A stretch of DNA of 64,000 nt from an uncultured virus (IMG/VR IMGVR_UViG_3300010361_000001) (taxonomy: Duplodnaviria > Heunggongvirae > Uroviricota > Caudoviricetes): the IMG/VR virus record IMGVR_UViG_3300010361_000001; one strand, 5' to 3'. Shown in pieces: positions 24,081-64,000 of the stretch. Every line of letters starts with the position of its first letter. The stretch's first letter is position 1. A model generated the notes under the pieces. It did no database searches and had not been told where the DNA came from. It was given only the letters and a program-made list of their open reading frames with translations. The translations under genes and the position numbers were made by a program.

Positions 24081-24143
24081 CTGCCTGACTTTACGACAGG
24101 TCCAAAAACCTGCTAAGGTGACTTCCGCTGCATCTACCACAGC

Positions 24144-25109
24144 ATGACCTACGAAAGGAAACCAATGGCAAAGCGCCGCTCATGGCCTCCCATCATCCAG
24201 GAGGCCCGCAACATCGTCAACAGCTACAACCCTGGTGGGACCGGCTACCTGATCACCCTCCGGCAGCTTCACTACCGGCTGTACATGAGTCCCCTGGGCC
24301 TGGGCTACCACAACAACGAGGACGACTACAAGTACCTCTCCAAGCTCACCGCTGAGGGGCGCCGGGAGGGCACCTTCCCCGATCTCCTGGACGAGACCCG
24401 TGAGGTCCACCAGGCCGACTCCTGGGATGACCCCGCCGACGCCGTCAACTGGATGGCTGGTTACTACCGGCGTGATCGTACGGAGGGCCAGCCCTACTAC
24501 ATCGCCCTGGCTGGAGAAAAAGCCACCCTGTTGGCCCAGTTGAACGCCTGGTTTTTCGACAGGGGGTTGCCGGTCATCCTGACCCGTGGCTACGGTTCAC
24601 AGACCTATGTGGACGAGGTGCGCCGGAAGGTGCAACGCGAAGCCGGGGGGCGCACCACGATCCTCATCTACGCCGGGGATCTGGACCCGTCCGGGATGGA
24701 CATCCTGCGTGACTTCCAGGCCCGCTGCCCGGTGTGGGACAAGGTCGAACACATCGCCGTGAAGATCGAGCAGGTTGAGCGCAAGAGGGGCCACATCAGG
24801 GAGTTCCTGGGCCTGGCGAAGATCACGCCCGCCGATGACTACGCCAAGTTCTTCTTCACCGGCAACCACCCCAAGGCCGGTGAGTACCGGGATTCGCGTG
24901 CCCCGTCCTTCATCGCCAGGTACGGGGAACTGTTCCAGACCGAAGTCGAGGCCATCGAGCCTGACACCCTCCGGCGCCTCTACACCGAAGCACTCGATCA
25001 GGTTTGGGACGAGTCGGCATACGAGGCGTCCCTGGCCCAGGAGGAAGCCGATAAGGCCCACCTCCACGAGATCGCTGACGGAATGGAGGACGACGATGAC
25101 GATGAATGA
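24144..25109 (+). CDS. TopoVI-A/Spo11-like wHTH-TOPRIM protein (alternative start 24165)
   Basis: TLRQLHYRL, GEK, RGYGS, YAGDLDPSG.DI, EVEA. Confidence 0.75.
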   Translation: MTYERKPMAKRRSWPPIIQEARNIVNSYNPGGTGYLITLRQLHYRLYMSPLGLGYHNNEDDYKYLSKLTAEGRREGTFPDLLDETREVHQADSWDDPADAVNWMAGYYRRDRTEGQPYYIALAGEKATLLAQLNAWFFDRGLPVILTRGYGSQTYVDEVRRKVQREAGGRTTILIYAGDLDPSGMDILRDFQARCPVWDKVEHIAVKIEQVERKRGHIREFLGLAKITPADDYAKFFFTGNHPKAGEYRDSRAPSFIARYGELFQTEVEAIEPDTLRRLYTEALDQVWDESAYEASLAQEEADKAHLHEIADGMEDDDDDE

Positions 25110-28416: not shown

Positions 28417-28785
28417 TTAGTCCTCCTCTTCCTCTTCATCGGGGTCGTACTCCACCCAGGACTCACCGGAGGCGATCTCACCGGCAGTCGACTCGTAGTC
28501 GTCCTTCAGTTCCTCTTCCTTCTCCTCTGACGCCTGCTGGCCCTGGTCGTAGATCCAGCCCGACACCAGCTTGGTCACCTCCTGCTGGTCCAGTTGCTCG
28601 CCGTCTTCGGTCCTGTAGCTCTCCATGATGAAGTCGATCACCAGGCTGTACTCCTGGTAGTCCCTCAGGTAGCTCTCCTGATTGGACCGGGCACTGGTAC
28701 GCGCCTGCCAGGCGGCAGGATCCTCACCAGGAGCCTGGGTCCACCACTCCGGGTCGTTGTAGTCGGGTAGCTCGATGGTTGTCAT
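28417..28785 (-). CDS. acidic hypothetical protein
   Basis: GAAAGG-CA-CTACCAC-A-ATG leader. Confidence 0.7.
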   Translation of the reverse strand: MTTIELPDYNDPEWWTQAPGEDPAAWQARTSARSNQESYLRDYQEYSLVIDFIMESYRTEDGEQLDQQEVTKLVSGWIYDQGQQASEEKEEELKDDYESTAGEIASGESWVEYDPDEEEEED

Positions 28786-28807
28786 TGTGGTAGTGCCTTT
28801 CTGTTGG

Positions 28808-29619: not shown

Positions 29620-30346
29620 TTCAAAACTTCCTCTCTGTTGTCATCGGCGTGGTAGTAGCCACCGGGGATACTACAGCACCCCATACGACCTCGCAAGTCG
29701 GGTCATACATATCAAAGCGAGCAGTTACTAGTGCGCTGACCTGCACTTATACCGAAGCACCGCATTTGGGGGCTGTTCGTGAGTTAGTCACGGGGGGTAC
29801 TACCCCGCATTTCCGCTCTCAACTAAGGCTACCTCCTGGGACCGCCCCGACCACGGAGAGTGGTTAAGGGTGGGGGGGTGGCATGCATGCTTATGCATGC
29901 CTTCCACAGCTATGCACAGGGCTGCATAGCTGCTGGTACGCGATTCCCCCTGCGTAGCAAGGGTTATTCACCCCGTATGCAGTGCTGTGGACAGCATGCA
30001 TACTCATGCACTGCATGTGCATGCACAGGGTACCCTGAGCCTGCTCACTCAGCGTGGTGGACTGTGGGTACGGCCAGGCTACAGACAGGGGGGTCAGGAG
30101 GGTGACTTGATCCCGTACCGATGCAGTGCTAGGGCCTATGGCATGTATGGAGTCATGGCCTCAGTCGTACTGGGGCATGAGGGCGATCCTCACGAGCCAT
30201 GGTGGGCACATGCAAGCGTCAATGGCCTGTATGGCGGCTGTGTGGCCCTGTGTGGTCACCAATCACATGCTTTGATGCAATCACCCATGCGGACCTGTTC
30301 TGTGGCCCCTGGTGGCCTCCTGGGGGCCTTACAGAGGCGTCTGGAC

Positions 30347-30743: not shown

Positions 30744-32279
30744 TCAGGCGATCACCCCCTCCGGCAGGCGGCTCTCACCGTACTTTGCCAGGAGGTGGGC
30801 CAGCAGCTTGGCCTGCACTGCCTTGAAGATCTCGTCCTCCTGCCACTCAGCGATGGAGCCGTCAGCGGCAGCCTTGAAGGTCTCCCACTTGCCAGCGATG
30901 AGATCCTCCAGCCAGGTGTCCACCGTGCCGGGGGCGATGAGCGTGTGGGCGAAGACCACGTCAGCCTCCTGGCCGATGCGGTTGATCCGATCCTCACACT
31001 GCATGACCGCACCGGGGTGCCAGGGCTGCTCGTGGAACAGGCAGTCAGTGACGTTGTGGCCGTTGCCGGTGAACGTGTGACCGAAGCCGTGGGCCTTGAT
31101 CGAGCAGACCAGCACCTGGGCGTCACCCTGGTTGAACTCAGCCTTGGCAGCCTCCAGGCGACCACGCTCCTGCTCAGCCATCAGGTGGATGGTCTTGATC
31201 CCGGCAGCGTTGAGAGCGGCGGCGATCTCGCGCTGGGCCTCGACATGATCGGCCCAAACCACCAGCTTCTTGCCGGGGTTGTCAGCCAGGAACTCGTCCT
31301 GGATCCAGTCCACCGTGGCGTTGATCTTGCAGGAGGCGACCGTCTTGCGGAGGGCACCCAGCAGTTCGATCACGAAGCTGCGGGGGTCACCCGAGCCGGT
31401 GAAGTTCTTCTCGACGTCCCAGTAGCGGTCCAGGTCACCGTTCAGGCTCAGGGGGATGTGCTGGCGTTGGGTCTCCTGCATGTCCAGCACGTCCTTGCGG
31501 AGGCGGCGGATGTAGCAGCGGTTGCGGAGCAGGCTGTTGAGCCGATCAAGGCGGCTGGCCCCCTTGAACTCCCACTTGCCGTAGCTGTTCTTGGTGGCCC
31601 CACAGTAGGTGAACTTGAAGCTGAACTCCCAGTCCCTCTCGGTGGGCTGCCAGTCGGCGGGGGCACCGTAGGGGGCCTTGGGGCGGGGGGTGACATCCTC
31701 CAGGCGACCGATCATCATCAACTGGGCCACCAGTTCCACCGGGCGGTTGAGCAGCGGGGTGCCGGTGAGCAGCAGCACCAGCCCCTTGGCCTGGCGAACA
31801 GCGGCGGCGATCTTCAGGGCAGCCTTGGTCTGCTGGGCCTTGGGATCCTTGACGTTGTGGGACTCGTCAATGACCAGGGCCGTGAAGCCCTCAGTGCTGA
31901 GAGCGGTCTGCCACTTGCTCAGCAGGTTGTAGCTGATGATGGCGACCTGGGCCGTGATCTCGTAGGGGCGGTTGCCACCCAGCACCTGGGTGGTCAGGTC
32001 CGGGAAGGCCAGGTTGATCTCGCGCTCCATGTTGGCCTTGAGGCTGGCCTTGACCACGAAGAGGAACTTGGGGGCCAGGCTGTGGGCCTTGGCGTGCAGG
32101 ACAGCGGTGCCGATGCCCTGGATGGACTTGCCCAGGCCCATCTCGTCTGCGATGAAGCAGCCCTTGCCGTCCTGGGTCTGGAACAGGGCGTAGGCCATGC
32201 CCACGGTCTGGAAAGGCTTGGGCTTGCGATCACCCGTGAAGAGGTGGTCGAAGTTGATCGGTGAGGTAGAAGTAGCCAT
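30744..32279 (-). CDS. SNF2-family helicase/translocase (SMARCAL1-like), leaderless
   Basis: IADEMGLGKS, DESH, LTGTP..NRP, QCEDRINRIGQ. Confidence 0.9.
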   Translation of the reverse strand: MATSTSPINFDHLFTGDRKPKPFQTVGMAYALFQTQDGKGCFIADEMGLGKSIQGIGTAVLHAKAHSLAPKFLFVVKASLKANMEREINLAFPDLTTQVLGGNRPYEITAQVAIISYNLLSKWQTALSTEGFTALVIDESHNVKDPKAQQTKAALKIAAAVRQAKGLVLLLTGTPLLNRPVELVAQLMMIGRLEDVTPRPKAPYGAPADWQPTERDWEFSFKFTYCGATKNSYGKWEFKGASRLDRLNSLLRNRCYIRRLRKDVLDMQETQRQHIPLSLNGDLDRYWDVEKNFTGSGDPRSFVIELLGALRKTVASCKINATVDWIQDEFLADNPGKKLVVWADHVEAQREIAAALNAAGIKTIHLMAEQERGRLEAAKAEFNQGDAQVLVCSIKAHGFGHTFTGNGHNVTDCLFHEQPWHPGAVMQCEDRINRIGQEADVVFAHTLIAPGTVDTWLEDLIAGKWETFKAAADGSIAEWQEDEIFKAVQAKLLAHLLAKYGESRLPEGVIA

Positions 32280-32344: not shown

Positions 32345-33397
32345 TCAGAGGATCTCGTTCAGCATCATGACGAACGAGGCGGGCAGGTCTTCAGGGCTGC
32401 CACAGCGGCTCACAGCGTTCATCACCGTGTCCAGGTCAGCCTGGGCCAGGGCAGAGGCATCCTGGGCCACCAGGACAGCCTGAGCGGCCTCACAGGCGGC
32501 TCTGGCCTCAGGAGCCACCACCAGTCCGAACCGGGTGGCGAAGGCCAGCACATCGGGCGTGGGGTTGGCACTGTTGGCGTACAGGCTGCGGACGAACGAG
32601 CGACCAGGCAGGTCGCGTACAGCGTCGGCAGCAGGCTGCCCAGGGGCGGTCAGGTTGGTCTTGATGATGATGCGACCGTCCACCAGGGTGACCTCAGCCG
32701 GGGCCTCCTGGACCACAGGCTCAGGCGACCAGGCGGGCACCTCAGGCTCAGGGGTGGGAGCAGGGGCCTGGGGGGCATGGGCCTCAGGCTGGGGCAGGTC
32801 GGTGGGCACCTCCACCTTGGGGGCCTCAGCCCACTTGCCAGCACAGACAGGGCCGATGCCAGCAGCGATGCTGCCCTCATCGGTCAGGGTGCGACCACAG
32901 ACCATGCAGCGACCGTAGAGGTGGCCCAGGGACTTGGCGATCTCCAGGGTCAGGGGCTGGACGGTGCCGTCAGCCATGCCCTTGCGGATGGTGCCGATGG
33001 CCCCACTGACGTAGACGAACGAGCCTGACTCAGTGTTCAGCACCTTGGCGTACTGGTTGCCAGAGCCATGCACGGCGACCTGGACTTTCCAGACGCGTTG
33101 CCCATCGGTGTAGAAGCCGTCCTGCACCTCAGCCTTGGCCGGGGCGGCAGCCTTGGGGCGACGGTTGACGTCAGCCCTCCAGCAGTTCAGGACACCCTTG
33201 GCCTTGCCGACCGACAGCCCACGAGGGCCACGGGCGTCAGCCCTCATGTCCAGCATGAAGTCGAAGCTGCCGGTGTAGGCGACAGCCCAGGCAGTAGCTG
33301 CCTGGCGTAGCTCCTCAGTCACGTCAGTGACCTCAACCTTGCGGTCCAGGCTGGCGAGCCAGCCCTCAATCTGTGCGGTGGTGGGTTCCGTAGCCAT
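32345..33397 (-). CDS. DUF6011-like Zn-finger protein, leaderless
   Basis: CMVCGRTLTDEGSIAAGIGPVCA. Confidence 0.8.
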   Translation of the reverse strand: MATEPTTAQIEGWLASLDRKVEVTDVTEELRQAATAWAVAYTGSFDFMLDMRADARGPRGLSVGKAKGVLNCWRADVNRRPKAAAPAKAEVQDGFYTDGQRVWKVQVAVHGSGNQYAKVLNTESGSFVYVSGAIGTIRKGMADGTVQPLTLEIAKSLGHLYGRCMVCGRTLTDEGSIAAGIGPVCAGKWAEAPKVEVPTDLPQPEAHAPQAPAPTPEPEVPAWSPEPVVQEAPAEVTLVDGRIIIKTNLTAPGQPAADAVRDLPGRSFVRSLYANSANPTPDVLAFATRFGLVVAPEARAACEAAQAVLVAQDASALAQADLDTVMNAVSRCGSPEDLPASFVMMLNEIL

Positions 33398-34497: not shown

Positions 34498-34549
34498 GGT
34501 TGTCGGTCCTTTCGGGTGGTAGATGTAGCGACAGGGGGAATGCTAGCGG

Positions 34550-34943: not shown

Positions 34944-34988
34944 GGGAACCTCCAGGGGTGGTAGTGGGTAGCAAGTACACGGTACAGG

Positions 34989-35047: not shown

Positions 35048-35644
35048 TCAGGCGACCACCCCCTCCACGAAGCAGTCGGAGATCTTCTTCCACGAGTGGG
35101 TGTAGCCCACCCGATCCTGCCAGGACACCTCGCGCCGACGCATGACGTCGTCCAGGCTGGCCTGGGCACCACGGGCGAGGCGGGCCTCAAAGCCCTCCTC
35201 CTCAACCTCTGCCAGCTTGTCAGCGTTCTTGACGAGGTATTCCTGGTCACGCACCTTGGTCCCAGCGTTGTAGTTCCAGCCGTACTTGGCCGTGGCGTCA
35301 CGGGACTCGTCAATGAGGAACAGGTAGTTGCTGGTGAACGTGGGGCGATACTCAGCGATGTGAGCCTCCAGGGTGGTGGGACGAGCCAGGCAGCGAGCCA
35401 GACCGTCCTGGGCCTCCTTGATGGCACCAGGCGTGGTGAACAGGACATGCACACGGGTCTTGGTCACCTCAGTGACCACGCCCACGCGCTGCTTGTTGTG
35501 GCCCCAGCAGGAGATCACCTGGCCCACCTGGACTTGACCAGGCGTGGCAGGCACCCACCCAGCGGGGGGACCAGTCAGGGAGGCGACGACACTCAGTGCC
35601 TGAGCCTCAAGTTCGGGGGTGATTGGGTTCGTCTTCGTAGCCAT
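35048..35644 (-). CDS. hypothetical protein, leaderless
   Basis: TACCAT-N6-ATGGCTAC. Confidence 0.7.
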   Translation of the reverse strand: MATKTNPITPELEAQALSVVASLTGPPAGWVPATPGQVQVGQVISCWGHNKQRVGVVTEVTKTRVHVLFTTPGAIKEAQDGLARCLARPTTLEAHIAEYRPTFTSNYLFLIDESRDATAKYGWNYNAGTKVRDQEYLVKNADKLAEVEEEGFEARLARGAQASLDDVMRRREVSWQDRVGYTHSWKKISDCFVEGVVA

Positions 35645-36032: not shown

Positions 36033-36878
36033 ATGGCTACGAAGCAACGACATCAGGGGCGCATCACCATGCCCCCCATCCCGGACCTGTCCAGGTATCA
36101 CTGGATCCTCGTCAACAGCAGTGCTGGCAAGGACTCCCAGGCGATGCTGGACTACATCGTCTCGCTCGCTGACGCCCAGGGCGTCTCGCGTGACCGCATC
36201 GTGGTCGTTCACTGCGACCTGGGTCGCGTCGAGTGGGAGGGCACCGCTGAGCTAGCGGCTGAGCAGGCTGCCCACTACGGACTGCGTTTCGAGATCGTGC
36301 GCCGTGACCTGGGCGACCTGCTGACCCAGGTGGAGACCCGCCACGCCACCAACGTCGCCAAGGGCAAGGACATCGCTGCCTGGCCGTCGAGCAAGGCTCG
36401 CTGGTGTACCTCTGATCAGAAGACCGCCCAGGTGCTGAAGCTGATCACGCGCCTGACCGATGAGGTCTACCGGGGCCATCAGATCCGCATCCTGAACTGC
36501 CTGGGCATCCGGGCGCAGGAGTCGGTCGCTCGCTCGCAGAAGCTGGCCTGGGAGAAAGACCCCAAGGCATGCAACGGCAAGCGTGACGTGGACCGCTGGC
36601 TGCCCATCTTCGACTGGACTGAGGATCAGGTGTGGGACCGGATCCATGCCTCTGGCGTGCGCTACCACCGTGCGTACGACCTGGGCATGAGCCGCCTGTC
36701 CTGCTGCTTCTGTGTCCTCGCCAGCAAGCCTGACCTGCTCATCGCTGCCACCCACAACAAGGGCCTGGCCCAGGAGTACCTGGCCGTCGAGAACAAGACG
36801 GGCAAGCGCTTCACCCAGGCTCTGTCCATCGCTGAGATCATCGAGGCGGCTGCCCGTGCGGAGAGTGTCTCCGCATAG
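36033..36878 (+). CDS. PAPS reductase-family protein, leaderless
   Basis: PP-loop SSAGKDS, RWCTSDQK, GIRAQES..R, LPIFDW, RLSCCFC. Confidence 0.9.
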   Translation: MATKQRHQGRITMPPIPDLSRYHWILVNSSAGKDSQAMLDYIVSLADAQGVSRDRIVVVHCDLGRVEWEGTAELAAEQAAHYGLRFEIVRRDLGDLLTQVETRHATNVAKGKDIAAWPSSKARWCTSDQKTAQVLKLITRLTDEVYRGHQIRILNCLGIRAQESVARSQKLAWEKDPKACNGKRDVDRWLPIFDWTEDQVWDRIHASGVRYHRAYDLGMSRLSCCFCVLASKPDLLIAATHNKGLAQEYLAVENKTGKRFTQALSIAEIIEAAARAESVSA

Positions 36879-36964
36879 GCAGGCTCGCCCTGACATGTAA
36901 TCGTCCCACCCATCTGATACTCTGTACCTGGCTACACCACTACCACCCCGAAAGGACCACTGCA

Positions 36965-37339
36965 ATGCCCACCGAGACCCTCCAGGACTTCCTGGACACC
37001 TACAACGAGGGAGACGTCCACAACCTGATCACGGTTGACGTCCCCCAGTCCACCAACGACACCTACTCCCCGTTCATCCTGGTGCGCTTCGGCAAGTTCG
37101 CTGCCATCATCAACCCCCAGGGGCTGGGCAACGAGGATGACCCCAAGCGCCACCTGTCCATCGACATCCACAGCTTCGTGGATGGCAAGGACGCCACCGC
37201 TGGCGTCTTCACCATGGGCAATGGCCGTCGCCACACGCTGGAGACCACTGGCACCACCAGCCACGGCTGGGCCTCTGCCCCCCTCGTGGTGGCCCTCATC
37301 GGCGCCCAGGGCGTCGAGGATGACGACGACGAGTCATGA
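36965..37339 (+). CDS. hypothetical protein
   Basis: GGCTAC...CTACCAC leader, SD GAAAGGA. Confidence 0.7.
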   Translation: MPTETLQDFLDTYNEGDVHNLITVDVPQSTNDTYSPFILVRFGKFAAIINPQGLGNEDDPKRHLSIDIHSFVDGKDATAGVFTMGNGRRHTLETTGTTSHGWASAPLVVALIGAQGVEDDDDES

Positions 37340-37641: not shown

Positions 37642-37665
37642 AGAACAGGAGCTACACCTACCACC

Positions 37666-38646
37666 ATGGCAAAGACCACCTACGTCAAGGCTGCACAGCA
37701 GCGATACGAAATGGTCCCGGTGATCGACCCCGAGACCGGCAAGCAGAAGCAGACCCCTGTCATGCGAAATGGCAAGCAGCGGGTCACCAAGACGGGGCGC
37801 CCCATTTTCATGAGCGTGACCGTCGCTGACAAGACCAAGCCCCTGCCCAACTACAAGTGCGGCAAGTGCGGCTGTGAGATCAAGGTGGGAGACCCCTACA
37901 AGCACATCACCCCCAAGTCAGGCCCCTACGGCGGTCGGACCATGCGGCGCTGTGCCTCCTGCCCCCAGTGGCAGGTATGGGAGTACTCGTCCAGCCTGAG
38001 CGCTCGCGTGGCTGAGATCAGCCATGACTTCTGGAACGAGGTTGACAACGCCAGCGATGCGGATGAGGTGCAGGAGTGCCTCAACAGCGCCGCTGAGCGG
38101 GTGCGTGAGATCGCTGAGGAAAAGCGTGAGGGTGCCTCCAACATCGAGGACGGCTTCGGTCACAGCACCTACCAGTCAGACGAACTCAACGACGTGGCTG
38201 ACCAGTTGGACTCCTGGGCCGATGACATCGAGTCGGCTGACATCCCTGACTACCCCGAAGCTGAAGAGCATGACTGCGATGACTGCGAGGGATCCGGGGA
38301 AGTCGACAACGACCAGTACGAGCTACTCCATGACAAGCAGGAAGAGACCCAGGTGGCCCTGGAGGCTTTCCGGAGGCGGCTGACCCTGCTCAATGCCATC
38401 CAGGTGCCCCTGTCCCCCCAGGCGGCGGCTGAGCGGAAGAAGCTGCTGGAGGTGACCATCCCAGCCCTGGTAAAGGAACTGGAGGCCGTTGAAGCCCTCC
38501 TGCTGGAGACTGAGGCCCAGGTGTCCTGTGAGACCTGTGACGGCACCGGACGCGTCGAGGATGACGAACCCACCGTCGAGCAGGTAGACGAGTGGAAAGA
38601 GGAAGTCCAGGGCAACCTGAGCATCGTGGACGAGTGCCCGGTATGA
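37666..38646 (+). CDS. hypothetical protein with CxxC/CxxCxGxG motifs
   Basis: CGKCG, CDDCEGSG, CETCDGTG. Confidence 0.75.
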   Translation: MAKTTYVKAAQQRYEMVPVIDPETGKQKQTPVMRNGKQRVTKTGRPIFMSVTVADKTKPLPNYKCGKCGCEIKVGDPYKHITPKSGPYGGRTMRRCASCPQWQVWEYSSSLSARVAEISHDFWNEVDNASDADEVQECLNSAAERVREIAEEKREGASNIEDGFGHSTYQSDELNDVADQLDSWADDIESADIPDYPEAEEHDCDDCEGSGEVDNDQYELLHDKQEETQVALEAFRRRLTLLNAIQVPLSPQAAAERKKLLEVTIPALVKELEAVEALLLETEAQVSCETCDGTGRVEDDEPTVEQVDEWKEEVQGNLSIVDECPV

Positions 38647-39340: not shown

Positions 39341-40423
39341 ATGGCTACCGCAACCGCAACCAAGACCAAGATCCAGCACAAGGGCCGTGTCACCCGCACG
39401 GTACGCGATGTCTACGCTGAGATCACCACCAAGATGATCGCTGCCCTCAAGGGCGGCAAGATCCCCTGGCACAAGCCCTGGCGGGTCACCGGCCTGGGCA
39501 GTGGCTGTGGCCCTGTCTCGCTGGCGACCGGCAAGCTGTATCGGGGCATCAACGTGTACCTGCTCATGCTCGCAGCCCAGGAGAAGGGCTACAGGACTGA
39601 CGCCTGGGGCACCTTCAATCAGATGGCTGAGCTAGCTGGCATGGTGCGTACCGAGATCAACGGACGCGTCAAGTACCTCTCGCCCACCCTGCCTGATGGC
39701 ACCGTCGATCCCACCCCCAGGGGCGTCCGCAAGGGTGAGCGCAGCACTGAGATCGTGTTCTGGAAAATCCTGAAGAAGGAAGAGTGGGACGAGACCAAGG
39801 GCAAGAACGTCACCAAGACCATCCCCCTGCTGCGCTTCTTCCACGTCTTCAACATGGACCAGTGCGAGTTCCCTGAGGGCACCAAGGGCGCCCGGATCAT
39901 GGACAGGCTGGCCCATCAGCCTGAGGTGACCCCCGCTGAGCGTGACGAGGTCGCTGAGAGCCTGCTCGCCAACTACCTGGCAACCGGCCCGTCGCTGGGC
40001 CACGGGGGCGACAGCGCTCACTACGTGCCAGCCGCTGACCACATCCAGATGCCCAAGGTGGAGGACTTCGACAGCAGCGAGCATTACCTGTCCACGCTCT
40101 ATCACGAGGTCACCCACTCGACGGGCCATGACTCCAGGCTCAAGCGTGAGGGCATCGCCAAGGGCACGTTCGGCGGGTTCGGCTCCAAGGTCTACAGCGA
40201 GGAAGAGCTAGTGGCCGAAATGGGCGCCAGCATGCTCTGTGCCATCGCTGACGTCGAGCAGGCTGCGATATTCGACAACAGCGTGGCCTACATCCAGCAC
40301 TGGATTTCCAAGCTGGAGCAGGACGACAAGCTGATCATCCGGGCGGCTGCCCAGGCTCAGAAGGCCGTGGACCTCGTCCTGGGGACCACGTTCGATGACG
40401 AAGAGGAAGGGGGCGAGTCATGA
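39341..40423 (+). CDS. ardC: ArdC-like antirestriction protein (ssDNA-binding + zincin), leaderless
   Basis: IPWHKPW, YRGIN, W.TFNQ, VRKGE, VFN..Q, HEVTHSTGH..RL.R, EELVAEMG. Confidence 0.9.
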   Translation: MATATATKTKIQHKGRVTRTVRDVYAEITTKMIAALKGGKIPWHKPWRVTGLGSGCGPVSLATGKLYRGINVYLLMLAAQEKGYRTDAWGTFNQMAELAGMVRTEINGRVKYLSPTLPDGTVDPTPRGVRKGERSTEIVFWKILKKEEWDETKGKNVTKTIPLLRFFHVFNMDQCEFPEGTKGARIMDRLAHQPEVTPAERDEVAESLLANYLATGPSLGHGGDSAHYVPAADHIQMPKVEDFDSSEHYLSTLYHEVTHSTGHDSRLKREGIAKGTFGGFGSKVYSEEELVAEMGASMLCAIADVEQAAIFDNSVAYIQHWISKLEQDDKLIIRAAAQAQKAVDLVLGTTFDDEEEGGES

Positions 40424-41458: not shown

Positions 41459-41492
41459 AATCGCATGGGTGACACCACTCACCCATGCGGAC
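41459..41492 (+). promoter_or_regulatory. 14-6-14 inverted-repeat promoter element
   Basis: ATCGCATGGGTGA-CACCAC-TCACCCATGCGGAC, 4 nt, TAGTCT. Confidence 0.85.
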
Positions 41493-41543
41493 CTGATAGT
41501 CTGACTGACAGCTACACCTACCACACACAGAAAGGCAAGACCG

Positions 41544-41771
41544 TTGTTCATCATCACCGCATTCCTTTGGGAGGATCGTGGTGGCACCCGCATGGTTGTG
41601 GGGTGCGAACAGATGGCGCGTCGCACGTACGACGCCATCGGCACCCTGGGCTACACGGCCCGCATGACCATCGCCCCTGAGGCCCCGGCACGCAGTGCTG
41701 ACGAGGTCGCTAGGGCTGAGCGGCTCGCTGCCCGTCTCGCTCCCATCATCTTCGGGACGGTCCAGTCATGA
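41544..41771 (+). CDS. hypothetical protein
   Basis: TTG after SD GAAAGG. Confidence 0.6.
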   Translation: MFIITAFLWEDRGGTRMVVGCEQMARRTYDAIGTLGYTARMTIAPEAPARSADEVARAERLAARLAPIIFGTVQS

Positions 41772-46519: not shown

Positions 46520-46731
46520 CCTGGCTTCAACTGAAGGGCTGCCATCTGATTGACCGGGATGTAGACCCAGCCGTTGTTGGTCTGGATGTGGTAGCTGCCC
46601 ATGGTGGGGCCACCCGGCATGAGCGCCCCCAGGTTGGGCAGGAAGCTGGGGACAGCGGTGACGATGGTGGTGTAGTTGATCCCAGTGGTGGTGCGACCAT
46701 CCTGGGTCTGACAAGTGACTTGTGTACTCAT
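46507..46731 (-). CDS. hypothetical protein
   Basis: operon position. Confidence 0.5.
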   Translation of the reverse strand: MSTQVTCQTQDGRTTTGINYTTIVTAVPSFLPNLGALMPGGPTMGSYHIQTNNGWVYIPVNQMAALQLKPGCSL

Positions 46732-58405: not shown

Positions 58406-58646
58406 AGCCTGGCGGCAGGACAGACGGGACGTCGGCTACTGGAAGAAGGCACGCGACCGCTCAGCCTCACTGAGGGAGCCGGAGATCGTGGCTGAGGTCG
58501 ACCTGGCCCTCATGACAGCGGGCCAGGCGATCTCCCGGTACCGGAACGGCAGTCAAGGCCGAGAGTACCAACTAGACCAGCTACGCGAGGCCAGGATCAG
58601 CCTGGAGGCCAGCCTGGGCATGCTGGAGAACGTCATCCCTGATTAA
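58389..58646 (+). CDS. hypothetical protein
   Basis: coupled. Confidence 0.6.
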   Translation: MANPLKAWRQDRRDVGYWKKARDRSASLREPEIVAEVDLALMTAGQAISRYRNGSQGREYQLDQLREARISLEASLGMLENVIPD

Positions 58647-58763
58647 GCGTCGGCCTATCCCCTACCGACATGATGTGGCCCTTGCTGTGCCCCCTTCCTA
58701 GGTTAGGGCACCGCACCTCTGTTCCACACCGTCCGAGACTGGAGGGTACTACCCAGTCAGACC

Positions 58764-59365: not shown

Positions 59366-59483
59366 CCCTCTAGCATAGCACAGCGAGCAGACCTGTGTGG
59401 ATCGGGTTGATGTGACGCATGTCACAGCTCACACGGTTTGGGGGTGACTTGTATGTGACATGGATGTGTGGTAGCTTAGATGC

Positions 59484-60950
59484 ATGGCAAATACCACCCA
59501 TAACCCAAACGTATTGGAGATAGATCTCCAGGGGTACCGCCAGACCTTGCAGAACAAAGGCAAGGCTCGCATCCTCCTGGAGGGCTGGTCCAATGCGGCA
59601 GACACTAACACCACCGTCATCCACGTCACCTTCGCGCAGAAGGATGGCTGGGCTGACCTGACTGTCGAGGACAACGACCCGGACGGCTTCAAGAGCCTGA
59701 AGGACGCGTGGACCCTCTTCGCTGCCTCTGAGCGGCGTGAGGACACCTCGCTTCGTGGTCGCTTCGGACAAGGCGAGAAGGAACTGATCGCCATCTGCTG
59801 CGACGGCAAGGAAGCCTTCCTCACCATCGCCTCCACCACGGGCACCGTCACCTTCAACCTGGACGGTCGCACTGAGGACAAGGAGGCCAAGACCAGCCTG
59901 GGCACCAAGCTGACGGCTCGCCTGAAGCTGAACGTCAAGGAGGCAGCCGAGTTCCGCCGCCTGGTCGCAACCATCATCCCTCCGCAGGAGGTCACCTTCC
60001 GCTTCAACGACAAGGTGGTCGATCGCCCGACGCCAGTCCGCACGGTCAGCGAGTCGCTCGACACTGTGTTCTGGAACAAGGACGGGGAGATGAAAGAGTC
60101 CACCCGCAAGACCGTGGTGGAGATCTTTGAGCCTGGTCCCAACCAGGATCCTCACATCATGGAACTGGGCGTGCCTGTCGTCAGCCACCCCGGCAAGTTC
60201 CACATCAACGTCAACCAAAAGGTGCCGTTGAACAGCGCCCGTGACAACGTGCGCCCCTCCTATCTGCGTCGGCTCAACGAGGTGGCCTTCAATGCCACGC
60301 ATGACCTGCTGACTGTGGAGGAACTGCAAGCTGGCTGGGTCAAGGACGCGCTGCCCAAGGCCAGTGCTGAGGCCCTGAAGACCCACTGGGACACCGTGTG
60401 GGGCGAGGACGCTGTCAGCTTCGACCCGTCCAACCCGGAGGCCAACAAGCGGGCCATGGATGAGGGGCGGCGCATCGTTTACGGGCGCAGCTACTCCGGC
60501 GACACCTGGGACCGCATGAAGGGCGAGGGCATCGCCAAGCCCAGCGGCCAGGTCATCGAGGTGGGCGTGCCCACGTCTCTCGATGGCATGCCTCCCATCG
60601 AAGAGGTGGAGTGGACCGCTGGCATGGTCAGCCTGGCTACCTACACCAGGGCCGTGGGCGAGTTCCTCTTGGGCTTTGAGCCTGAGGTCAACTTCTACAA
60701 CCAGGGCCTGGCTGGGCCGAACGCCCGTGCCATGTGGGGGAACCGGGAGATCATCTTCAACCTCCGCTACCTGGGCAAGCGCTGGCCCCAGGACGCGTCC
60801 CAGGAGGACATTGACGAGCTACTCATCCACGAGTTCGCTCACAACTGGGAGGCCGACCACCTCTCTGACTCCTACAACAGGTGGACGTGTCGCCTGGGCG
60901 CCAGGCTCCGCAACTGCACCACCAACATCAGGGAGGTTCGCAAGTCGTAG
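59484..60950 (+). CDS. GHKL ATPase fused to HExxH peptidase-like domain, leaderless
   Basis: LEGWSNAAD, VEDNDPDG, RGRFGQGEK, GT; LLIHEFAH. Confidence 0.8.
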   Translation: MANTTHNPNVLEIDLQGYRQTLQNKGKARILLEGWSNAADTNTTVIHVTFAQKDGWADLTVEDNDPDGFKSLKDAWTLFAASERREDTSLRGRFGQGEKELIAICCDGKEAFLTIASTTGTVTFNLDGRTEDKEAKTSLGTKLTARLKLNVKEAAEFRRLVATIIPPQEVTFRFNDKVVDRPTPVRTVSESLDTVFWNKDGEMKESTRKTVVEIFEPGPNQDPHIMELGVPVVSHPGKFHINVNQKVPLNSARDNVRPSYLRRLNEVAFNATHDLLTVEELQAGWVKDALPKASAEALKTHWDTVWGEDAVSFDPSNPEANKRAMDEGRRIVYGRSYSGDTWDRMKGEGIAKPSGQVIEVGVPTSLDGMPPIEEVEWTAGMVSLATYTRAVGEFLLGFEPEVNFYNQGLAGPNARAMWGNREIIFNLRYLGKRWPQDASQEDIDELLIHEFAHNWEADHLSDSYNRWTCRLGARLRNCTTNIREVRKS

Positions 60951-61469: not shown

Positions 61470-62464
61470 TGGCGAGCGTCTACCGACCCATCGACGTGCT
61501 GGAGCAGCAGGTCGATCTCATCCGCTTCTGGAAGCACAGCATCCACCGGCACAGCTTCGCTGACGCCTTTGAGTTCCAGATCAGACAGTTCCGCTCCACC
61601 ATGGGCGAGGCCGTCGACACCTTCCTGGTGAGCAGGCTCGACAACGCTGAGACCTTCTATGTGAGGAATCAGATCATCGACCGGCTCTGGCACTTCACCG
61701 ACGTGTACGAGGCCCACGAACACGAGACCATCGAGTACCAGGACTTGCCCTGCCCCAGGGGGTTCATCTACCTGGAGAAGCCCATCCACCTCTTCGACAC
61801 GCGTGGCCGGGTCTGCTCAGTCAAGGCCATCCTGTGGTCCGAAGAGCGGGGTGGGGTGAGCATCGTGGAGTTCAGCGATGCCCGTGACCCACTGGATGAG
61901 ATCAACACCCTGGACTACAACGGCACCGGCAAGCCCACCTACGAGACCTGCGAGCTACCCCTGTTCCACATCATGCCGTGGGCCTGGGGGAAAAAGATCA
62001 GGAACCTGACGGCGGATGATTTCCGCATGCAGGAGCTAGGTGACCCCAACGACACCACCCCCGAAGAGCGGGACATGATGGTCCAGAACCTGCCCTCCAC
62101 GGTGCAGAGCATGGACCGGTTCAACGGGTTCCTGATCAGCCTGTGGGAGTTCGTACAGCAACAGATCCCCCATCGCATGCGGGCTGACCGTCCCATGCTG
62201 AAGCGTCTCCAGAGGGCACACAGCCCCCTCTCAGAGGTAACCGTGGTCGACCTGAGGGCGGAAGATCCCCCGCCCAGGCACGTCGACCCGGACCATGTTC
62301 CACAGACTGTCCTGTGGACTCATCGCTGGCGGTCCAGGGAACACAAGCGCCGCTGGATCGACAAGCACGGCAACTACAGGGAGACCACCGTCTCCGCATC
62401 AGTCAAGGGGCCAGAGCATCTGCCCCTCATAGAGAAAGATCGGATATTCAATGTCAAGCGCTAA
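61469..62464 (+). CDS. hypothetical phage protein, paralog of 20431 ORF
   Basis: WTHRWRSREHKRRW...KGPEHLPL. Confidence 0.75.
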   Translation: MASVYRPIDVLEQQVDLIRFWKHSIHRHSFADAFEFQIRQFRSTMGEAVDTFLVSRLDNAETFYVRNQIIDRLWHFTDVYEAHEHETIEYQDLPCPRGFIYLEKPIHLFDTRGRVCSVKAILWSEERGGVSIVEFSDARDPLDEINTLDYNGTGKPTYETCELPLFHIMPWAWGKKIRNLTADDFRMQELGDPNDTTPEERDMMVQNLPSTVQSMDRFNGFLISLWEFVQQQIPHRMRADRPMLKRLQRAHSPLSEVTVVDLRAEDPPPRHVDPDHVPQTVLWTHRWRSREHKRRWIDKHGNYRETTVSASVKGPEHLPLIEKDRIFNVKR

Positions 62465-62672
62465 CACACAGATGAAGCAGAAGATCGTGAGCAGGGTGAG
62501 GCTGGGCGACAGCCGGGAGGTGCGTATCACGCGCATCCCCAACGGCACCAGCGACGACTACATCAGGGTCGGTATCAACCTGCTCCCCAACGGTGAGAAC
62601 ATGAGCGGGGCGGTCTTCCCCGAGTCCGCACTGGACGAGGTCATCGCCGCCCTGAGGAAGGTGCATAGCTGA
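62451..62672 (+). CDS. possible PC4-like ssDNA-binding protein
   Basis: beta-rich REVRI...YIRV...GAVFP..ALDEVIAAL. Confidence 0.45.
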   Translation: MSSANTQMKQKIVSRVRLGDSREVRITRIPNGTSDDYIRVGINLLPNGENMSGAVFPESALDEVIAALRKVHS

Positions 62673-63058
62673 TGGCTAATGAACCCAACGACGAGCTACT
62701 GGAGATGAGGTGCCGCTGCTGCGGCGTGTTCATGGGCCACCGACGCCGCATAGGACGGTTCGTTTTTTGGTGCAGCGAGGACTGTGCGGACTCCCCCATG
62801 GCTAAGTGGCAGGAGTCCCAGCCCAGGGATGAGGCCATCGTCGCTATGTTCCTAGATGGCAAGGGAATCATGGAAATATCTCGTGATCTTGAGGACTGGC
62901 CCTACCAGTACATCCAGCAGACCCTGACCAGGAGGGGCCTCACAGAGCGGCGCCTGGTGGTCAAGGAACACACCAGGCTGGACTCTGAGGGCAAGGAACG
63001 CACGGTCAAGGAGCATGTGCTGGCACCACGCAGGCTGGTGCGTAGCAAGGCGAGCTAA
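62672..63058 (+). CDS. Zn-finger + HTH protein
   Basis: CRCCG, WCSEDC, RDEAIVAMFLDGKGIMEISRDL; ends PRRLVRSKAS. Confidence 0.7.
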   Translation: MANEPNDELLEMRCRCCGVFMGHRRRIGRFVFWCSEDCADSPMAKWQESQPRDEAIVAMFLDGKGIMEISRDLEDWPYQYIQQTLTRRGLTERRLVVKEHTRLDSEGKERTVKEHVLAPRRLVRSKAS

Positions 63059-63076
63059 GACCTGATACTGTGATCC

Positions 63077-63183
63077 ACGCCACCTGATCCTTTCCTCCTT
63101 GCGAGTGGGTGTCGGTAGGTCATGGTGTGGTAGCCATGTAGCCATCGAGAAGGCCCCCCATCGGGGGGCCTCTCGTATTTTCT
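63077..63183 (+). ncRNA. candidate trans-acting sRNA antisense to early-transcript 5' ends
   Basis: TGnTACTGT promoter at 63063-63071; anti-SD plus GTGGTAGCCAT/GTAGCCAT; terminator. Confidence 0.6.
63146..63183. terminator. terminator hairpin, probably bidirectional
   Basis: CGAGA-AGGCCCCCC/GGGGGGCCT-CTCG then TATTTT. Confidence 0.75.
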
Positions 63184-63193
63184 GGCTAAAAAA

Positions 63194-63460
63194 TCAGGCC
63201 AGAGTGCCTACTGGCCCCTCGTTCACCCGCTCATCCATCCCATGGGTACCGATGGCACTGGTGATGGTGTGGATCAGCTTCCCACCCATCGACCCAGCGA
63301 TTTTTCCGAAGGGCATGTCGTTGAAGTCCTTCATCATGCCGCCACCCTCCGCAGCACCACCCGCTTCAGCACCTCCAGCTAGTTCCGGGAGGGCCTCCGC
63401 AGCCACTGCGCCGATGTTGGAGCGGGTCAGGAGCCAGACTGCCAAGAGAATCAGTGCCAT
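63194..63460 (-). CDS. small membrane/secreted protein, leaderless
   Basis: TACGCT-N6-ATG; hydrophobic N-terminus. Confidence 0.6.
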   Translation of the reverse strand: MALILLAVWLLTRSNIGAVAAEALPELAGGAEAGGAAEGGGMMKDFNDMPFGKIAGSMGGKLIHTITSAIGTHGMDERVNEGPVGTLA

Positions 63461-63512
63461 AGCAGGAGCGTAGTTGGGTGGTCAAGGCCCCCCAGGTGCC
63501 ACGGGTAAGACT

Positions 63513-63950
63513 ATGGACATGGCAGATGAGCAAGAGCATCCACATCGCAGGTCATCCCACCAGGCTGAGGCCAAAGACGAGGTAACCCCCCCGGAGGAGC
63601 AGCCCGCCCCTCCTGAGGTGGTGGATCCCTACAAGCAAGTCCTCTCCCCGTACGAGCTTCCCGCCAACACCGCTGCCGCTGCCTCCATCGTGGCGACTGG
63701 GAACGTGGCCGTGGATCCGGAGGCGCCCATCTCCGACGAGCGCAAGGCCCAGGCTGAGGCCAACATCCAGGCACACCAGGACGCCGTCCAGGAGGCCATG
63801 GCTGGGGTGACCGACGATCCCCGCCTGGGTGGGAGCGCAGACTTCCAGGAGTACAACCAGTCCCAGGCCAAGGCGGCAGCCGAGAGGGAGGCTCAGAAGG
63901 CTGAGGCTGAGGTGAAGGAGGAGGCAGAGAAGGTAGAGGCCAAGGCTTAA
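63513..63950 (+). CDS. acidic Ala/Glu-rich hypothetical protein
   Basis: typical codon usage; start 63513 or 63519. Confidence 0.65.
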   Translation: MDMADEQEHPHRRSSHQAEAKDEVTPPEEQPAPPEVVDPYKQVLSPYELPANTAAAASIVATGNVAVDPEAPISDERKAQAEANIQAHQDAVQEAMAGVTDDPRLGGSADFQEYNQSQAKAAAEREAQKAEAEVKEEAEKVEAKA

Positions 63951-64000
63951 TGCCTGCGCCGTACCTCCTCAACCCCCTGGAGCTTCCGGTCGCTCAGTCA

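What the first reader, a model, noticed from the sequence alone, without database searches (positions are those of the whole stretch)
63063..63183. Candidate master sRNA antisense to the 5' ends of a whole class of phage early mRNAs
Seen: an intergenic unit with an extended -10 (TGaTACTGT, 63063-71), about 70 nt of unstructured-looking sequence and a terminator. Its body is a string of reverse complements of motifs recurring at predicted transcript starts 20-40 kb away. GTAGCCAT occurs twice (63130-37, 63138-45) and pairs with ATGGCTAC, the first 8 nt of leaderless genes at 32279(-), 33397(-), 35644(-), 36033(+) and 39341(+). GTGGTAG pairs with CTACCAC in leaders near 24134, 28285(-), 28790(-), 29655(-), 34520(-), 34962(-), 36940, 37658 and 41518. 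63115-63133 is complementary at 18 of 19 nt to 24134-24152, which spans the ATG of the TOPRIM gene. TCCTTTCCTCCTT pairs with the GAAAGGA and GGAGG SDs of these leaders. Inference: one modular sRNA shuts off translation of early genes, including leaderless ones by covering the start codon, as an early-to-late switch. I do not know of a described equivalent.
Basis: partly seen in the sequence, partly recalled or inferred. Interest (0 to 1): 0.92.

Follow-up and report, generated by a model that had tools for sequence, protein, structure and literature searches.

The report
Conserved phage small RNA against gene starts
A soil phage and its relatives carry a small conserved non-coding gene whose RNA is the mirror image of the short sequence that opens many of the phage's own early messages, so it probably switches those genes down together.

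Summary
The unit at 63063-63183 lies between two convergent genes. It has an extended -10 (TGATACTGT), a CU-rich anti-Shine-Dalgarno stretch, a hairpin with a GUGGUA loop, two GUAGCCAU repeats and a plus-strand terminator.

The same architecture follows the homologous 128-aa gene in 6 of 6 viral contigs and 21 of 24 metagenome loci, giving 17 distinct sequences. The -10, the GUAGCCAU(G) element and the terminator are kept. The 5' part varies in length by amounts that are not multiples of 3.

The complementary motifs (ATG)GCTAC and CTACCAC are strand-specifically concentrated at gene 5' ends. In the window, 14 of 27 CTACCAC sites lie there (2.7 expected). The reverse orientation gives 1 of 27.

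There are no Rfam hits and no RNA data. An energy-based whole-window scan was not discriminating.

My best reading (about 0.55) is a trans-acting antisense sRNA that covers the start codons or 5' ends of about 15 phage transcripts. The direction of the effect (repression) is inferred.

It belongs to no known RNA family. It works most like P1 c4 or P4 CI RNA, but with a dispersed regulon. Cluster K mycobacteriophages show a parallel: a single inverted copy of their start-associated sequence sits in a conserved hairpin loop.

The parts
63063..63071 (+). Extended -10 promoter element TGATACTGT (hexamer TACTGT at 63066-71), 5 nt after the stop codon of the upstream gene.
   Evidence: All 17 distinct homologous units keep T/G-G-n-T-A-n-n-n-T at this place. 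TGNTANNNT is depleted in the window, 15 against 34.9 expected, and several of the 15 lie at the early promoters.
63078..63183 (+). Predicted sRNA transcript of about 105 nt. The 5' end is inferred as 6-8 nt after the -10; the 3' end is in the U-tract.
   Evidence: Inference from the promoter and terminator. No conserved ORF. Repeat spacing varies between homologues at 8, 9 and 10 nt. No Rfam family matches.
63088..63100 (+). CU-rich anti-Shine-Dalgarno element TCCTTTCCTCCTT in the variable 5' domain.
   Evidence: A CU-rich 5-mer is present in 11 of 17 distinct units, against 2.3 expected from shuffles. It is complementary to the GAAAGGA/GGAGG SDs of the leaders.
63121..63138 (+). Conserved hairpin CAUGGU-[GUGGUA]-GCCAUG. 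The loop and 5' arm are complementary to CUACCACACC-AUG.
   Evidence: It is the RNAalifold consensus. 100% of cells are paired in 13 sequences. There is 1 pair with a change on both sides (UA to CG) and a U-G closing pair in 12 of 13 sequences. Single-sequence folds agree.
63130..63145 (+). Two tandem GTAGCCAT repeats, complementary to the AUGGCUAC start of the leaderless mRNAs. The second repeat lies between the hairpin and the terminator.
   Evidence: GTAGCCAT(G) lies 4-8 nt before the terminator in most homologues; variants are GTTAGCCAT, GTGAGCCAT and GTAGCTG.
63146..63183 (+). Intrinsic terminator: stem CGAGAAGGCCCCCC/GGGGGGCCTCTCG followed by UAUUUUCU.
   Evidence: plus-strand terminator at 63151-63171 with a T-rich tail. 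(helix 2 has U-G pairs on the plus strand).
63186..63217 (-). Separate minus-strand terminator of the convergent 88-aa gene (63194-63460). Context only.
   Evidence: minus-strand stem 63217-63196 with tail GATTTTTTAG.
62672..63058 (+). Upstream 128-aa gene, always linked to the unit. It has a Cys-rich N-terminus and an HTH-like C-terminal half.
   Evidence: Conserved protein: 6 viral and 24 metagenome relatives. There are only weak HTH_23/Sigma70_r4-type leads.
32272..32279 (-). Predicted target: leaderless start ATGGCTAC of the SNF2 helicase gene (TACCCT, 7 nt, then ATG; an inverted-repeat operator lies upstream).
33390..33397 (-). Predicted target: leaderless start ATGGCTAC of the DUF6011 gene.
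35637..35644 (-). Predicted target: leaderless start ATGGCTAC of a 198-aa gene.
36033..36040 (+). Predicted target: leaderless start ATGGCTAC of the PAPS-reductase-like gene.
39341..39348 (+). Predicted target: leaderless start ATGGCTACC of the ArdC-like gene. Homologues in two relatives start the same way.
24127..24167 (+). Predicted target: leader of the TOPRIM-like gene. It holds the 18-of-19 complementarity (24134-24152) and a GAAAGGA SD.
29620..29660 (-). Predicted target: leader GGCTACTACCAC... of the 29619-29038 operon.
34498..34530 (-). Predicted target: leader GCTACATCTACCACCCGAAAGGA.
34944..34973 (-). Predicted target: leader GCTACCCACTACCACCCCTGGAGG.
36930..36967 (+). Predicted target: leader GGCTACACCACTACCACCCCGAAAGGA.
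41510..41546 (+). Predicted target: leader GCTACACCTACCACACACAGAAAGG.
37651..37668 (+). Predicted target: intercistronic GCTACACCTACCACC immediately before an ATG, with no promoter upstream.
   Evidence: The site is not among the promoter-pattern hits.
28783..28793 (-). Predicted target: intercistronic CTACCACA immediately before an ATG.
59426..59475 (-). Predicted target outside the early block: leader GCTACCACACATCC of gene 59425-59033.

Best explanation
The locus is a small RNA gene transcribed on the plus strand from its own extended -10 promoter and ended by its own intrinsic terminator.

The RNA carries up to three recognition modules:
1. A CU-rich anti-Shine-Dalgarno stretch in a variable 5' hairpin.
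2. A conserved hairpin whose 5' arm and loop (CAUGGUGUGGUAG) are complementary to CUACCACACC-AUG.
3. One or two GUAGCCAU elements just before the terminator, complementary to AUGGCUAC, the very 5' end of the phage's leaderless mRNAs.

By pairing in trans with these start-associated sequences, it would cover the start codon or the 5' end of about 15 phage transcripts. Most are DNA-metabolism and host-takeover genes at 24-42 kb. Pairing would block ribosome loading, and duplex-dependent decay may follow. The result would be to turn this gene class down together during a lytic cycle.

Shown: the anatomy, the conservation, the strand, and the strand-specific placement of the complementary motifs.
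Inferred: that the RNA is made, that pairing happens, and that the outcome is repression.
For: **Conservation of a gene-like architecture.** The unit follows the homologous 128-aa gene in 6 of 6 viral contigs and 21 of 24 metagenome loci. Of the other three, L048 is cut at its contig end, and L057 and L058 lack the unit. Further copies are L025 and L060. There are 17 distinct sequences. The -10, GUAGCCAU(G) and the terminator are kept, while the 5' part ranges from 16 to 64 nt.

**Promoter.** TGNTANNNT is depleted in the window (15 against 34.9 +/- 6.2 expected; all 100 shuffles reach 15). Several of the 15 are the recognisable early promoters. The unit's -10 is followed by G, as at the early promoters.

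**Strand.**
- The plus-strand fold is more stable than the minus-strand fold in 17 of 17 units, by 7.3 kcal/mol on average.
- The hairpin has a U-G closing pair in 12 of 13 sequences, and the terminator stem has U-G pairs.
- The U-tract is on the plus strand, and the convergent gene has its own minus-strand terminator.

**Non-coding.** The spacing between the repeats is 8, 9 or 10 nt in different homologues. Peptides read from the minus strand are not conserved (read).

**Targets: motif counts in the sense-strand 5' zones**

| Genome | Motif | Sites in zone | Expected | p |
|---|---|---|---|---|
| window | CTACCAC | 14 of 27 | 2.7 | 5.5e-8 |
| G002 | CTACCAC | 9 of 33 | 3.2 | 0.0035 |
| G004 | CTACCAC | 6 of 19 | 1.8 | 0.0071 |
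| G005 | CTACCAC | 5 of 13 | 1.4 | 0.0092 |
| G004 | ATGGCTAC | 6 of 9 | 0.9 | 5.1e-5 |

The reverse orientation in the same zones gives 1 of 27, 4 of 33, 1 of 19 and 1 of 13.

8-mers complementary to the core are enriched in 5' zones: window 15 against 4.8 (0 of 200 shuffles reach it) and G004 13 against 3.2 (0 of 200).

All 6 inverted-repeat (IR) operator promoters are followed by (ATG)GCTAC.

The motif also lies directly before ATGs without a promoter: window 37651 and 28786, and G004 9432. A further copy directly before an ATG, at G006 82693, has a -10-like TAGAGT upstream. This fits an RNA-level site better than a promoter element.

**Start codons.** Every register of the conserved core contains CAU opposite a start codon.

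**Lifestyle.** No tyrosine integrase was found in 3 of 3 relatives, including a contig rated 98% complete. No prophage copy was found in the species genomes. Both fit a lytic-cycle role.
Against: There is no expression evidence of any kind.

**Energy-based scanning does not single out 5' ends.** With a 35-nt seed against 31,908 windows, only 4 of the top 25 clusters lie in sense 5' zones (about 2.2 expected), and the best hit is inside a gene. With the whole sRNA, the scan was uninformative.

The strong duplex energies at 11 predicted 5' ends are partly circular. The mean was -28.4 kcal/mol, against -15.7 for shuffled seeds (0 of 300 shuffles reach it). But those ends were chosen by the presence of GCTAC.

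**Covariation between seed and targets is mixed.**
- For: G006 has a GUUAGCCAU seed and an ATGGCTAAC leaderless gene. G004 has one seed, and 5 of 5 of its promoter-preceded leaderless starts read ATGGCTACC, against 1 of 5 in the window.
- Against: G007 has two ATGGCTAAC starts but a GUAGCCAU seed, and G002 has an ATGGCTAA start without a matching seed.

Enrichment in the fragment G005 is not significant for 8-mers (5 against 2.3; 22 of 200 shuffles reach it).

Hairpin covariation is thin: 4 of 6 pairs never vary.

In the L051-L056 group, GUAGCCAU is predicted to be paired inside a hairpin.

The sRNA promoter looks like the early promoters, so the RNA may be made at the same time as its targets. 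That does not by itself give a switch.
Confidence: 0.55

Rival explanations
1. The RNA and the pairing are the same, but the outcome is opposite. The sRNA pairs with the extreme 5' ends of the phage messages and protects them from 5'-end-dependent RNases, or opens their structure. It would then be an activator or stabiliser of the early class, not a shut-off.
For: The pairing sites lie at or within a few nt of the predicted 5' ends of 10 transcripts. The sRNA promoter has the same TGnTAnnnT-G form as the early promoters and lacks their inverted-repeat operator, so it may be co-expressed with them. sRNAs that stabilise mRNAs by pairing with the 5' end are known in Gram-positive bacteria (FasX, RoxS; recalled, not checked here).
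Against: For leaderless mRNAs, the duplex would bury the 5' AUG that the ribosome must bind. The other registers also cover the AUG or the SD, which is the classical geometry of translational repression.
Confidence: 0.12
2. The shared motif works at the DNA level. A phage or host protein binds (G)CTAC repeats at the +1 region of the early promoters, and the locus is one more binding site or a decoy in inverted orientation. Any RNA made there is incidental.
For: The motif sits right at the predicted +1 of 10 promoters. A perfect palindrome of the same word, CTACGTG-AA-CACGTAG, is conserved at 23876-23899 and in relative G002. The neighbouring, always-linked 128-aa gene looks like a small Cys-rich protein with an HTH (weak leads).
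Against: The motif is strictly sense-oriented at gene starts: 14 of 27 against 1 of 27 in the window. It also occurs between cistrons next to the ATG with no promoter. Spacing between the CTAC words varies from 5 to 10 nt, and spacing between the locus repeats from 8 to 10 nt, which suits bulged RNA duplexes better than a fixed protein dimer. The conserved plus-strand -10, U-tract and G-U pairs are not explained by this reading.
Confidence: 0.1
3. The locus is only the structured 3' untranslated end of the upstream operon, or a relic of a promoter-leader cassette that was duplicated in inverted orientation. It has no trans function.
For: There is no terminator between the 128-aa gene and the unit, so the operon transcript would run through it. 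The reverse complement resembles a whole leader, at 18 of 19 nt with the TOPRIM-like gene's leader plus an SD-like stretch. The early promoters look like duplicated cassettes.
Against: A relic would decay. Instead, the core is nearly invariant across relatives whose neighbouring protein is only 50-77% identical, while the flanks diverge. A -10 is kept at every copy, even 60 nt downstream of the stop codon in L003.
Confidence: 0.1
4. The functional strand is the minus strand. The region is one more leader (ATGGCTAC..CTACCAC..SD) for a minus-strand gene or small ORF.
For: On the minus strand, the region reads like the other leaders and ends in an SD-like AAGGAGGAAAGGA. A 97-codon ORF starts at 63145.
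Against: No -10 precedes it on the minus strand. It lies directly behind two terminators. The ORF is antisense to a conserved gene and has no family hit. Short peptides after the SD differ completely between relatives, and L005, L006 and L049 have no SD-like stretch at all. Repeat spacing is not kept in frame. The minus strand folds worse in 17 of 17 units.
Confidence: 0.03

Closest known systems
c4 antisense RNA of phages P1/P7 (immI region)
   Same: A phage-encoded antisense RNA that acts on a phage mRNA from a separate site. Its recognition sequences are presented in RNA loops and pair around a ribosome-binding region to block translation. (Passages of review PMC12197685; further details recalled.)
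   Different: c4 controls one operon, is cut out of the same transcript as its target, and serves prophage immunity (recalled). Here there is an own promoter, about 15 dispersed targets including leaderless 5' ends, no sign of lysogeny, and no sequence or Rfam similarity.
CI RNA of satellite phage P4 and relatives
   Same: A small phage RNA complementary to repeated short target sequences in early transcripts, used in place of a protein repressor (recalled; only a search listing was seen).
   Different: It acts by premature transcription termination within one operon, and it is processed from that operon's leader (recalled). Here the complementarity centres on start codons and SDs of many separate transcripts. 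There is no Rfam match.
Start-associated sequences (SAS) and extended SAS of Cluster K mycobacteriophages
   Same: A short asymmetric motif tied, in one orientation, to the translation starts of 13-19 non-structural genes. It is often preceded by a promoter embedded in an inverted repeat. Its role is still unknown, and K1 phages have one copy in the opposite orientation (passages of PMC3203893, PMC11373665 and PMC12699233). The window has the same three ingredients.
   Different: The motif sequence is different. The SAS consensus has 1 match with 2 mismatches in the window against 3.3 expected, so it is absent. SAS includes the SD and lies 3-9 nt before the ATG. Here the motif lies at the 5' end, or is itself the leaderless start. 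No sRNA has been proposed for SAS in the papers I could search.
Multi-target seed sRNAs with C/U-rich loops that mask Shine-Dalgarno sequences (e.g. RsaE/RoxS)
   Same: One small RNA, with short accessible CU-rich or loop seeds, has many mRNA targets hit at the ribosome-binding site (recalled general knowledge).
   Different: Those sRNAs are host-encoded and their regulons are metabolic. Here both the RNA and the regulon are phage-encoded, and the main seed recognises a phage-specific start motif rather than the SD alone.

Membership tests
Trans-encoded base-pairing small RNA (generic class) | Own promoter | tested here: met
   The evidence is computational only. An extended -10 is conserved in 17 of 17 distinct units, and the motif is rare in the window. 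No transcription start site has been mapped.
Trans-encoded base-pairing small RNA (generic class) | Rho-independent terminator at the 3' end | tested here: met
   One search finds a plus-strand stem with a T-tail. A GC-rich hairpin is present in all units, though a clear U-tract is present in only a minority of them.
Trans-encoded base-pairing small RNA (generic class) | Non-coding | tested here: met
   There is no conserved ORF on either strand. Indels are not multiples of three. The minus-strand ORF has no Pfam or PHROG hit.
Trans-encoded base-pairing small RNA (generic class) | Conserved seed complementary to targets encoded elsewhere | tested here: met
   The core is conserved. Complementary motifs are enriched in sense-strand 5' zones. 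The energy scan was not discriminating.
Trans-encoded base-pairing small RNA (generic class) | The RNA is expressed and changes target expression | not testable with these tools
   No RNA run holds the sequence. No cultured host is known.
Rfam C4 / P1 c4-P4 CI antisense RNA family, and any other Rfam family | Match to the family covariance model | tested here: not met
   The whole window gives 0 matches at gathering thresholds. At 62900-63300, only sub-threshold chance matches appear, the best scoring 22.7 bits against a cut-off of 55.
P1 c4-type immunity RNA | Processed from the same operon as its single target, in a temperate phage | tested here: not met
   The targets are dispersed over more than 35 kb on both strands. 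No tyrosine integrase was found in 3 of 3 relatives. No prophage copies were found. Serine integrases were not searched.
SAS/ESAS system of Cluster K mycobacteriophages | 13-bp consensus GGGATAGGAGCCC (up to 2 mismatches) 3-9 bp upstream of start codons | tested here: not met
   There is 1 match with 2 mismatches in the window, against 3.3 expected.
SAS/ESAS system of Cluster K mycobacteriophages | Promoter embedded in an imperfect inverted repeat upstream of a subset of the motif-bearing genes | tested here: met
   An analogous architecture, but not homologous sequence, is present. There are 6 inverted-repeat units (CCGCATGGGTGA..TCACCCATGCGG), each followed by a -10 and (ATG)GCTAC.

The most novel reading that the evidence does not exclude
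A general, undescribed regulatory design in phages that use -10-only promoters and leaderless mRNAs. A class of genes is tagged with a short start-associated sequence, and the genome carries exactly one inverted copy of the tag inside a small structured RNA that reads the whole class in trans.

The window's sRNA would be one instance. The conserved hairpin carrying the single inverted SAS in Cluster K mycobacteriophages would be another. That would explain what SAS are for, a question open since 2011.
Probability: 0.3. Interest if true: 0.85.

Novelty: new variant of a known kind. Interest (0 to 1): 0.72.

Why it matters
Phage sRNAs known to act on phage messages control one neighbouring gene or operon. 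A single RNA aimed at a start-site tag shared by about 15 scattered transcripts would be different: a post-transcriptional counterpart of a repressor-operator regulon, and it would include leaderless mRNAs, whose only handle is their 5' AUG. It would show how a lytic phage can time a whole gene class without a new sigma factor.

It also gives a concrete hypothesis, testable in Mycobacterium smegmatis, for the unexplained start-associated sequences of Cluster K mycobacteriophages.

Tried and rejected
- **Whole-sRNA duplexfold against 50-nt windows.** Energies of -50 to -59 kcal/mol appear everywhere in this GC-rich DNA, so the scan is uninformative.
- **35-nt seed against 28-nt windows over both strands.** Only 4 of the top 25 clusters lie in sense 5' zones, about 2.2 expected. 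This is not a useful discriminator.
- **Ungapped complementarity of the whole 73-nt body at 8-10 nt.** There are 243, 86 and 28 hits spread over genes, which is too noisy. Only the conserved core gives a signal.
- **Promoter definition by TGACnn, 16-19 nt, then TAnnnT.** It found only 1 of the known early promoters, because the conserved TGAC word sits 21 nt from the -10. I dropped it as an independent promoter set.
- **Consensus sigma-70 scan of 62000-64000.** No promoter was found. The scan requires a -35, which these promoters lack.
- **Sequence searches for relatives.** Megablast and tblastn against named phage genomes gave no match. ArdC gave only 37% identity, to Caulobacter phages, which says nothing about the host. 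Genome contigs gave no prophage. No whole genome is held for the window.
- **Sequencing runs.** No RNA holder is listed; all holders are soil metagenome DNA.
- **Earlier findings.** Nothing was on record.
- **Viral-contig scan for the L052-type seed.** No match, so that variant's targets could not be examined.
- **Minus-strand small ORFs after the SD-like stretch.** Read by eye. The peptides are unrelated between relatives, so I rejected this.
- **Resemblance of the 5' domain to a 16S rRNA 3' end.** I only recalled this and could not test it, because the host is unknown. It is not used as evidence.
Full report
**Setting.** The window is 63% GC and phage-like. It encodes a baseplate wedge protein, a UvsX-like recombinase, a RuvC-like resolvase, a DpdA-like transglycosylase, a dCTP deaminase, an SNF2 helicase, an ArdC-like protein, a PAPS-reductase-like protein and a TOPRIM/topoisomerase-like protein. 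No whole genome is held for it. It has no near relative among named phages. Its DNA is found only in soil metagenomes.

The locus lies between the stop codon of a plus-strand 128-aa gene (62672-63058) and a convergent minus-strand 88-aa gene (63194-63460).

**Checking the observation.**
- TGATACTGT is at 63063-71, two GTAGCCAT copies are at 63130-45, and TCCTTTCCTCCTT is at 63088-63100.
- ATGGCTAC occurs 13 times, against 1.17 expected. CTACCAC occurs 28 times, against 7.3 expected.
- The five named leaderless sites are in frame with long ORFs and lie 6-7 nt after a TAnnnT hexamer.
- The nine named CTACCAC leaders exist.
- 63115-63133 pairs with 24134-24152 at 18 of 19 positions.

Two corrections apply. 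The body is predicted to be structured. The ATG covered at 24144 is an in-frame upstream ATG, and the SD-preceded ATG is at 24165.

**What the targets look like.** The 24-42 kb block is a mosaic of short transcription units.
- Six units have a long inverted repeat (CCGCATGGGTGA..TCACCCATGCGG) just upstream of the -10.
- A search for TAnnnT, 5-10 nt, then (ATG)GCTA[AC] returns 11 sites in the window. Ten of them are gene 5' ends.
- Transcripts therefore begin in one of two ways. Some are leaderless and begin AUGGCUAC. Others begin GCUAC-n-CUACCAC and continue to a GAAAGGA/GGAGG Shine-Dalgarno sequence.
- The same word also sits directly in front of ATGs between cistrons, where there is no promoter: window 37651 and 28786, and G004 9432. 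At G006 82693 it also sits directly before an ATG, but a -10-like TAGAGT lies upstream.

The placement is strand-specific. In the window, 14 of 27 CTACCAC sites lie in sense-strand 5' zones, which make up 10% of the sequence (2.7 expected, p = 5.5e-8). In the opposite orientation the count is 1 of 27. Relatives G002, G004 and G005 behave the same way, with 9 of 33, 6 of 19 and 5 of 13.

**Comparative evidence for a gene.** The upstream 128-aa protein has relatives at 50-97% identity. The same unit lies downstream of it in 6 of 6 viral contigs and 21 of 24 metagenome loci. Of the other three, one is cut at its contig end and two lack the unit. Two more copies came from pattern scans. The other hits were chance matches inside genes.

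There are 17 distinct sequences. Three features are kept:
- a T/G-G-n-TAnnnT element after the stop codon, followed by G, the same form as the early promoters;
- GUAGCCAU(G) 4-8 nt before a GC-rich hairpin;
- the hairpin itself.

The part in between ranges from 16 to 64 nt. It still carries a CU-rich anti-SD word in 11 of 17 units, against 2.3 expected.

The extended -10 word is under-represented in the window: 15 found against 34.9 +/- 6.2 expected. Several of the 15 mark the early promoters. So its conserved presence here is meaningful.

**Which strand.** Five lines of evidence point to the plus strand.
- The conserved -10 is on it.
- Where a U-tract exists, it follows the hairpin on the plus strand. 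The convergent gene has its own minus-strand terminator at 63217-63186.
- The plus strand folds better than its complement in 17 of 17 units, by 7.3 kcal/mol on average, and with more G-U pairs. Part of this reflects the G+T-rich composition.
- The consensus hairpin CAUGGU[GUGGUA]GCCAUG is fully paired in 13 sequences. It has one double change (UA to CG in L006), a stem extended by matched insertions in L049, and a U-G closing pair in 12 of 13 sequences that would be a C-A mismatch on the other strand.
- On the minus strand there is no promoter. The 97-codon ORF is antisense to a conserved gene, and the repeat spacing of 8, 9 or 10 nt does not respect a reading frame.

**How it probably works.** The conserved core UCAUGGUGUGGUAGCCAUGUAGCCAU contains three CAU triplets. 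In every register these face a start codon: CUACCACACC-AUG for leadered genes and AUGGCUAC for leaderless ones. Together with the anti-SD word, this is the geometry of translational occlusion. I therefore favour a trans-acting repressor of a start-tagged gene class.

Further support is weaker.
- 8-mers complementary to the core are enriched in 5' zones: window 15 against 4.8 and G004 13 against 3.2 (0 of 200 shuffles reach either); G002 17 against 6.5 (3 of 200); G005 5 against 2.3 (22 of 200, not significant).
- Duplex energies at 11 predicted 5' ends are far below those of shuffled seeds (-28.4 against -15.7 kcal/mol; 0 of 300 shuffles reach it). However, those ends were picked by a word that the seed complements.
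- An unbiased energy scan fails to single out 5' ends.
- Covariation between seed variants and leaderless starts is mixed.

No integrase was found in 3 of 3 relatives, and no prophage copy was found. This makes an immunity role less likely than a role within the lytic cycle.

**Comparison with what is known.** Rfam has nothing for this unit. The nearest working analogues are P1 c4 RNA and P4 CI RNA, but those act on one operon. A 2025 review of phage sRNAs, read in passages, lists cis or single-target cases. My searches found no phage sRNA described against a class of its own start sites. This statement is limited to the open-access library searched.

The nearest analogue of the targets is the SAS/ESAS system of Cluster K mycobacteriophages, whose role is stated to be unknown in 2011, 2024 and 2025.

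[quoted passage not shown] I followed it up in phage Adephagia.
- The inverted copy lies in the 430-bp non-coding gap between genes 92 and 93.
- It sits downstream of an invariant TAGACT, in the 10-nt apical loop (CCUCCUAUCC) of a long hairpin.
- The 138-nt stretch folds at -72.8 kcal/mol, with a z-score of -6.7.
- The region is conserved in 161 Mycobacterium phage records and is mostly unannotated.
- In an alignment of 7 diverse members, 8 of 46 predicted pairs keep pairing through changes on both sides. The loop is kept in 5 of 7 and altered in Ekdilam and Hurricane.
- Pixie (K3) matches only the first half of the region, so the parallel may not hold for all subclusters.

This is a lead, not a result.

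**Verdict.** The unit is a real, conserved, plus-strand sRNA-like gene. Its conserved core mirrors the start-site tag of a class of the phage's own genes. The anatomy and conservation are shown. The pairing, and the direction of its effect, are inferred.

Noticed in passing
window 32298-32327(-), 33415-33444(-), 34551-34580(-), 34990-35019(-), 39293-39322(+), 41462-41491(+): Six copies of a long inverted repeat (CCGCATGGGTGA..N..TCACCCATGCGG), preceded by GAAAAT and followed by a -10 and the start motif. They look like operators for a dimeric regulator of the early class. Similar repeats occur in relatives G004 and G006.
   Followed up: partly
window 23862-23945 (+): A second small conserved unit, right after the stop codon of the transglycosylase-like gene. 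It has TAAACT, then GCTACGTGAACACGTAGTCACAAC (a perfect palindrome of the CTAC word), then a GC hairpin and a T7 run. The 24-nt core is identical in relative G002 (86843, minus strand), although the neighbouring TOPRIM-like proteins are only 54% identical. Its function is unknown.
   Followed up: partly
L068 38570-38745 (Mycobacterium phage Adephagia, record 58569-58744): The single inverted copy of the Cluster K start-associated sequence sits in the apical loop of a conserved hairpin. It lies downstream of an invariant TAGACT, in a non-coding gap. The fold has a z-score of -6.7, 8 of 46 pairs covary across 7 phages, and the region is present in 161 records. It is a possible anti-SAS small RNA.
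   Followed up: partly
whole window: The extended -10 word TGNTANNNT is strongly under-represented: 15 found against 34.9 +/- 6.2 expected, and all 100 shuffles reach 15. This looks like selection against stray promoters.
   Followed up: no
window 59460-59492: Overlapping divergent promoters. The leaderless start ATGGCA of the plus-strand operon (59484) reads TGCCAT on the other strand. There it sits where the -10 would be for the minus-strand leader GCTACCACAC (59475).
   Followed up: no
window 49400-50839(-), 45803-46714(-), 36033-36878(+): A DpdA-like tRNA-guanine transglycosylase, a dCTP deaminase and a PAPS-reductase-like gene. Together they suggest that the phage modifies its DNA bases.
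   Followed up: no
window 62672-63058 (+): The gene always linked to the sRNA encodes a small protein with an invariant Cys-rich N-terminus (RCRxCG...FWCSEDC) and an HTH-like C-terminal half. It matches no Pfam family above threshold.
   Followed up: partly
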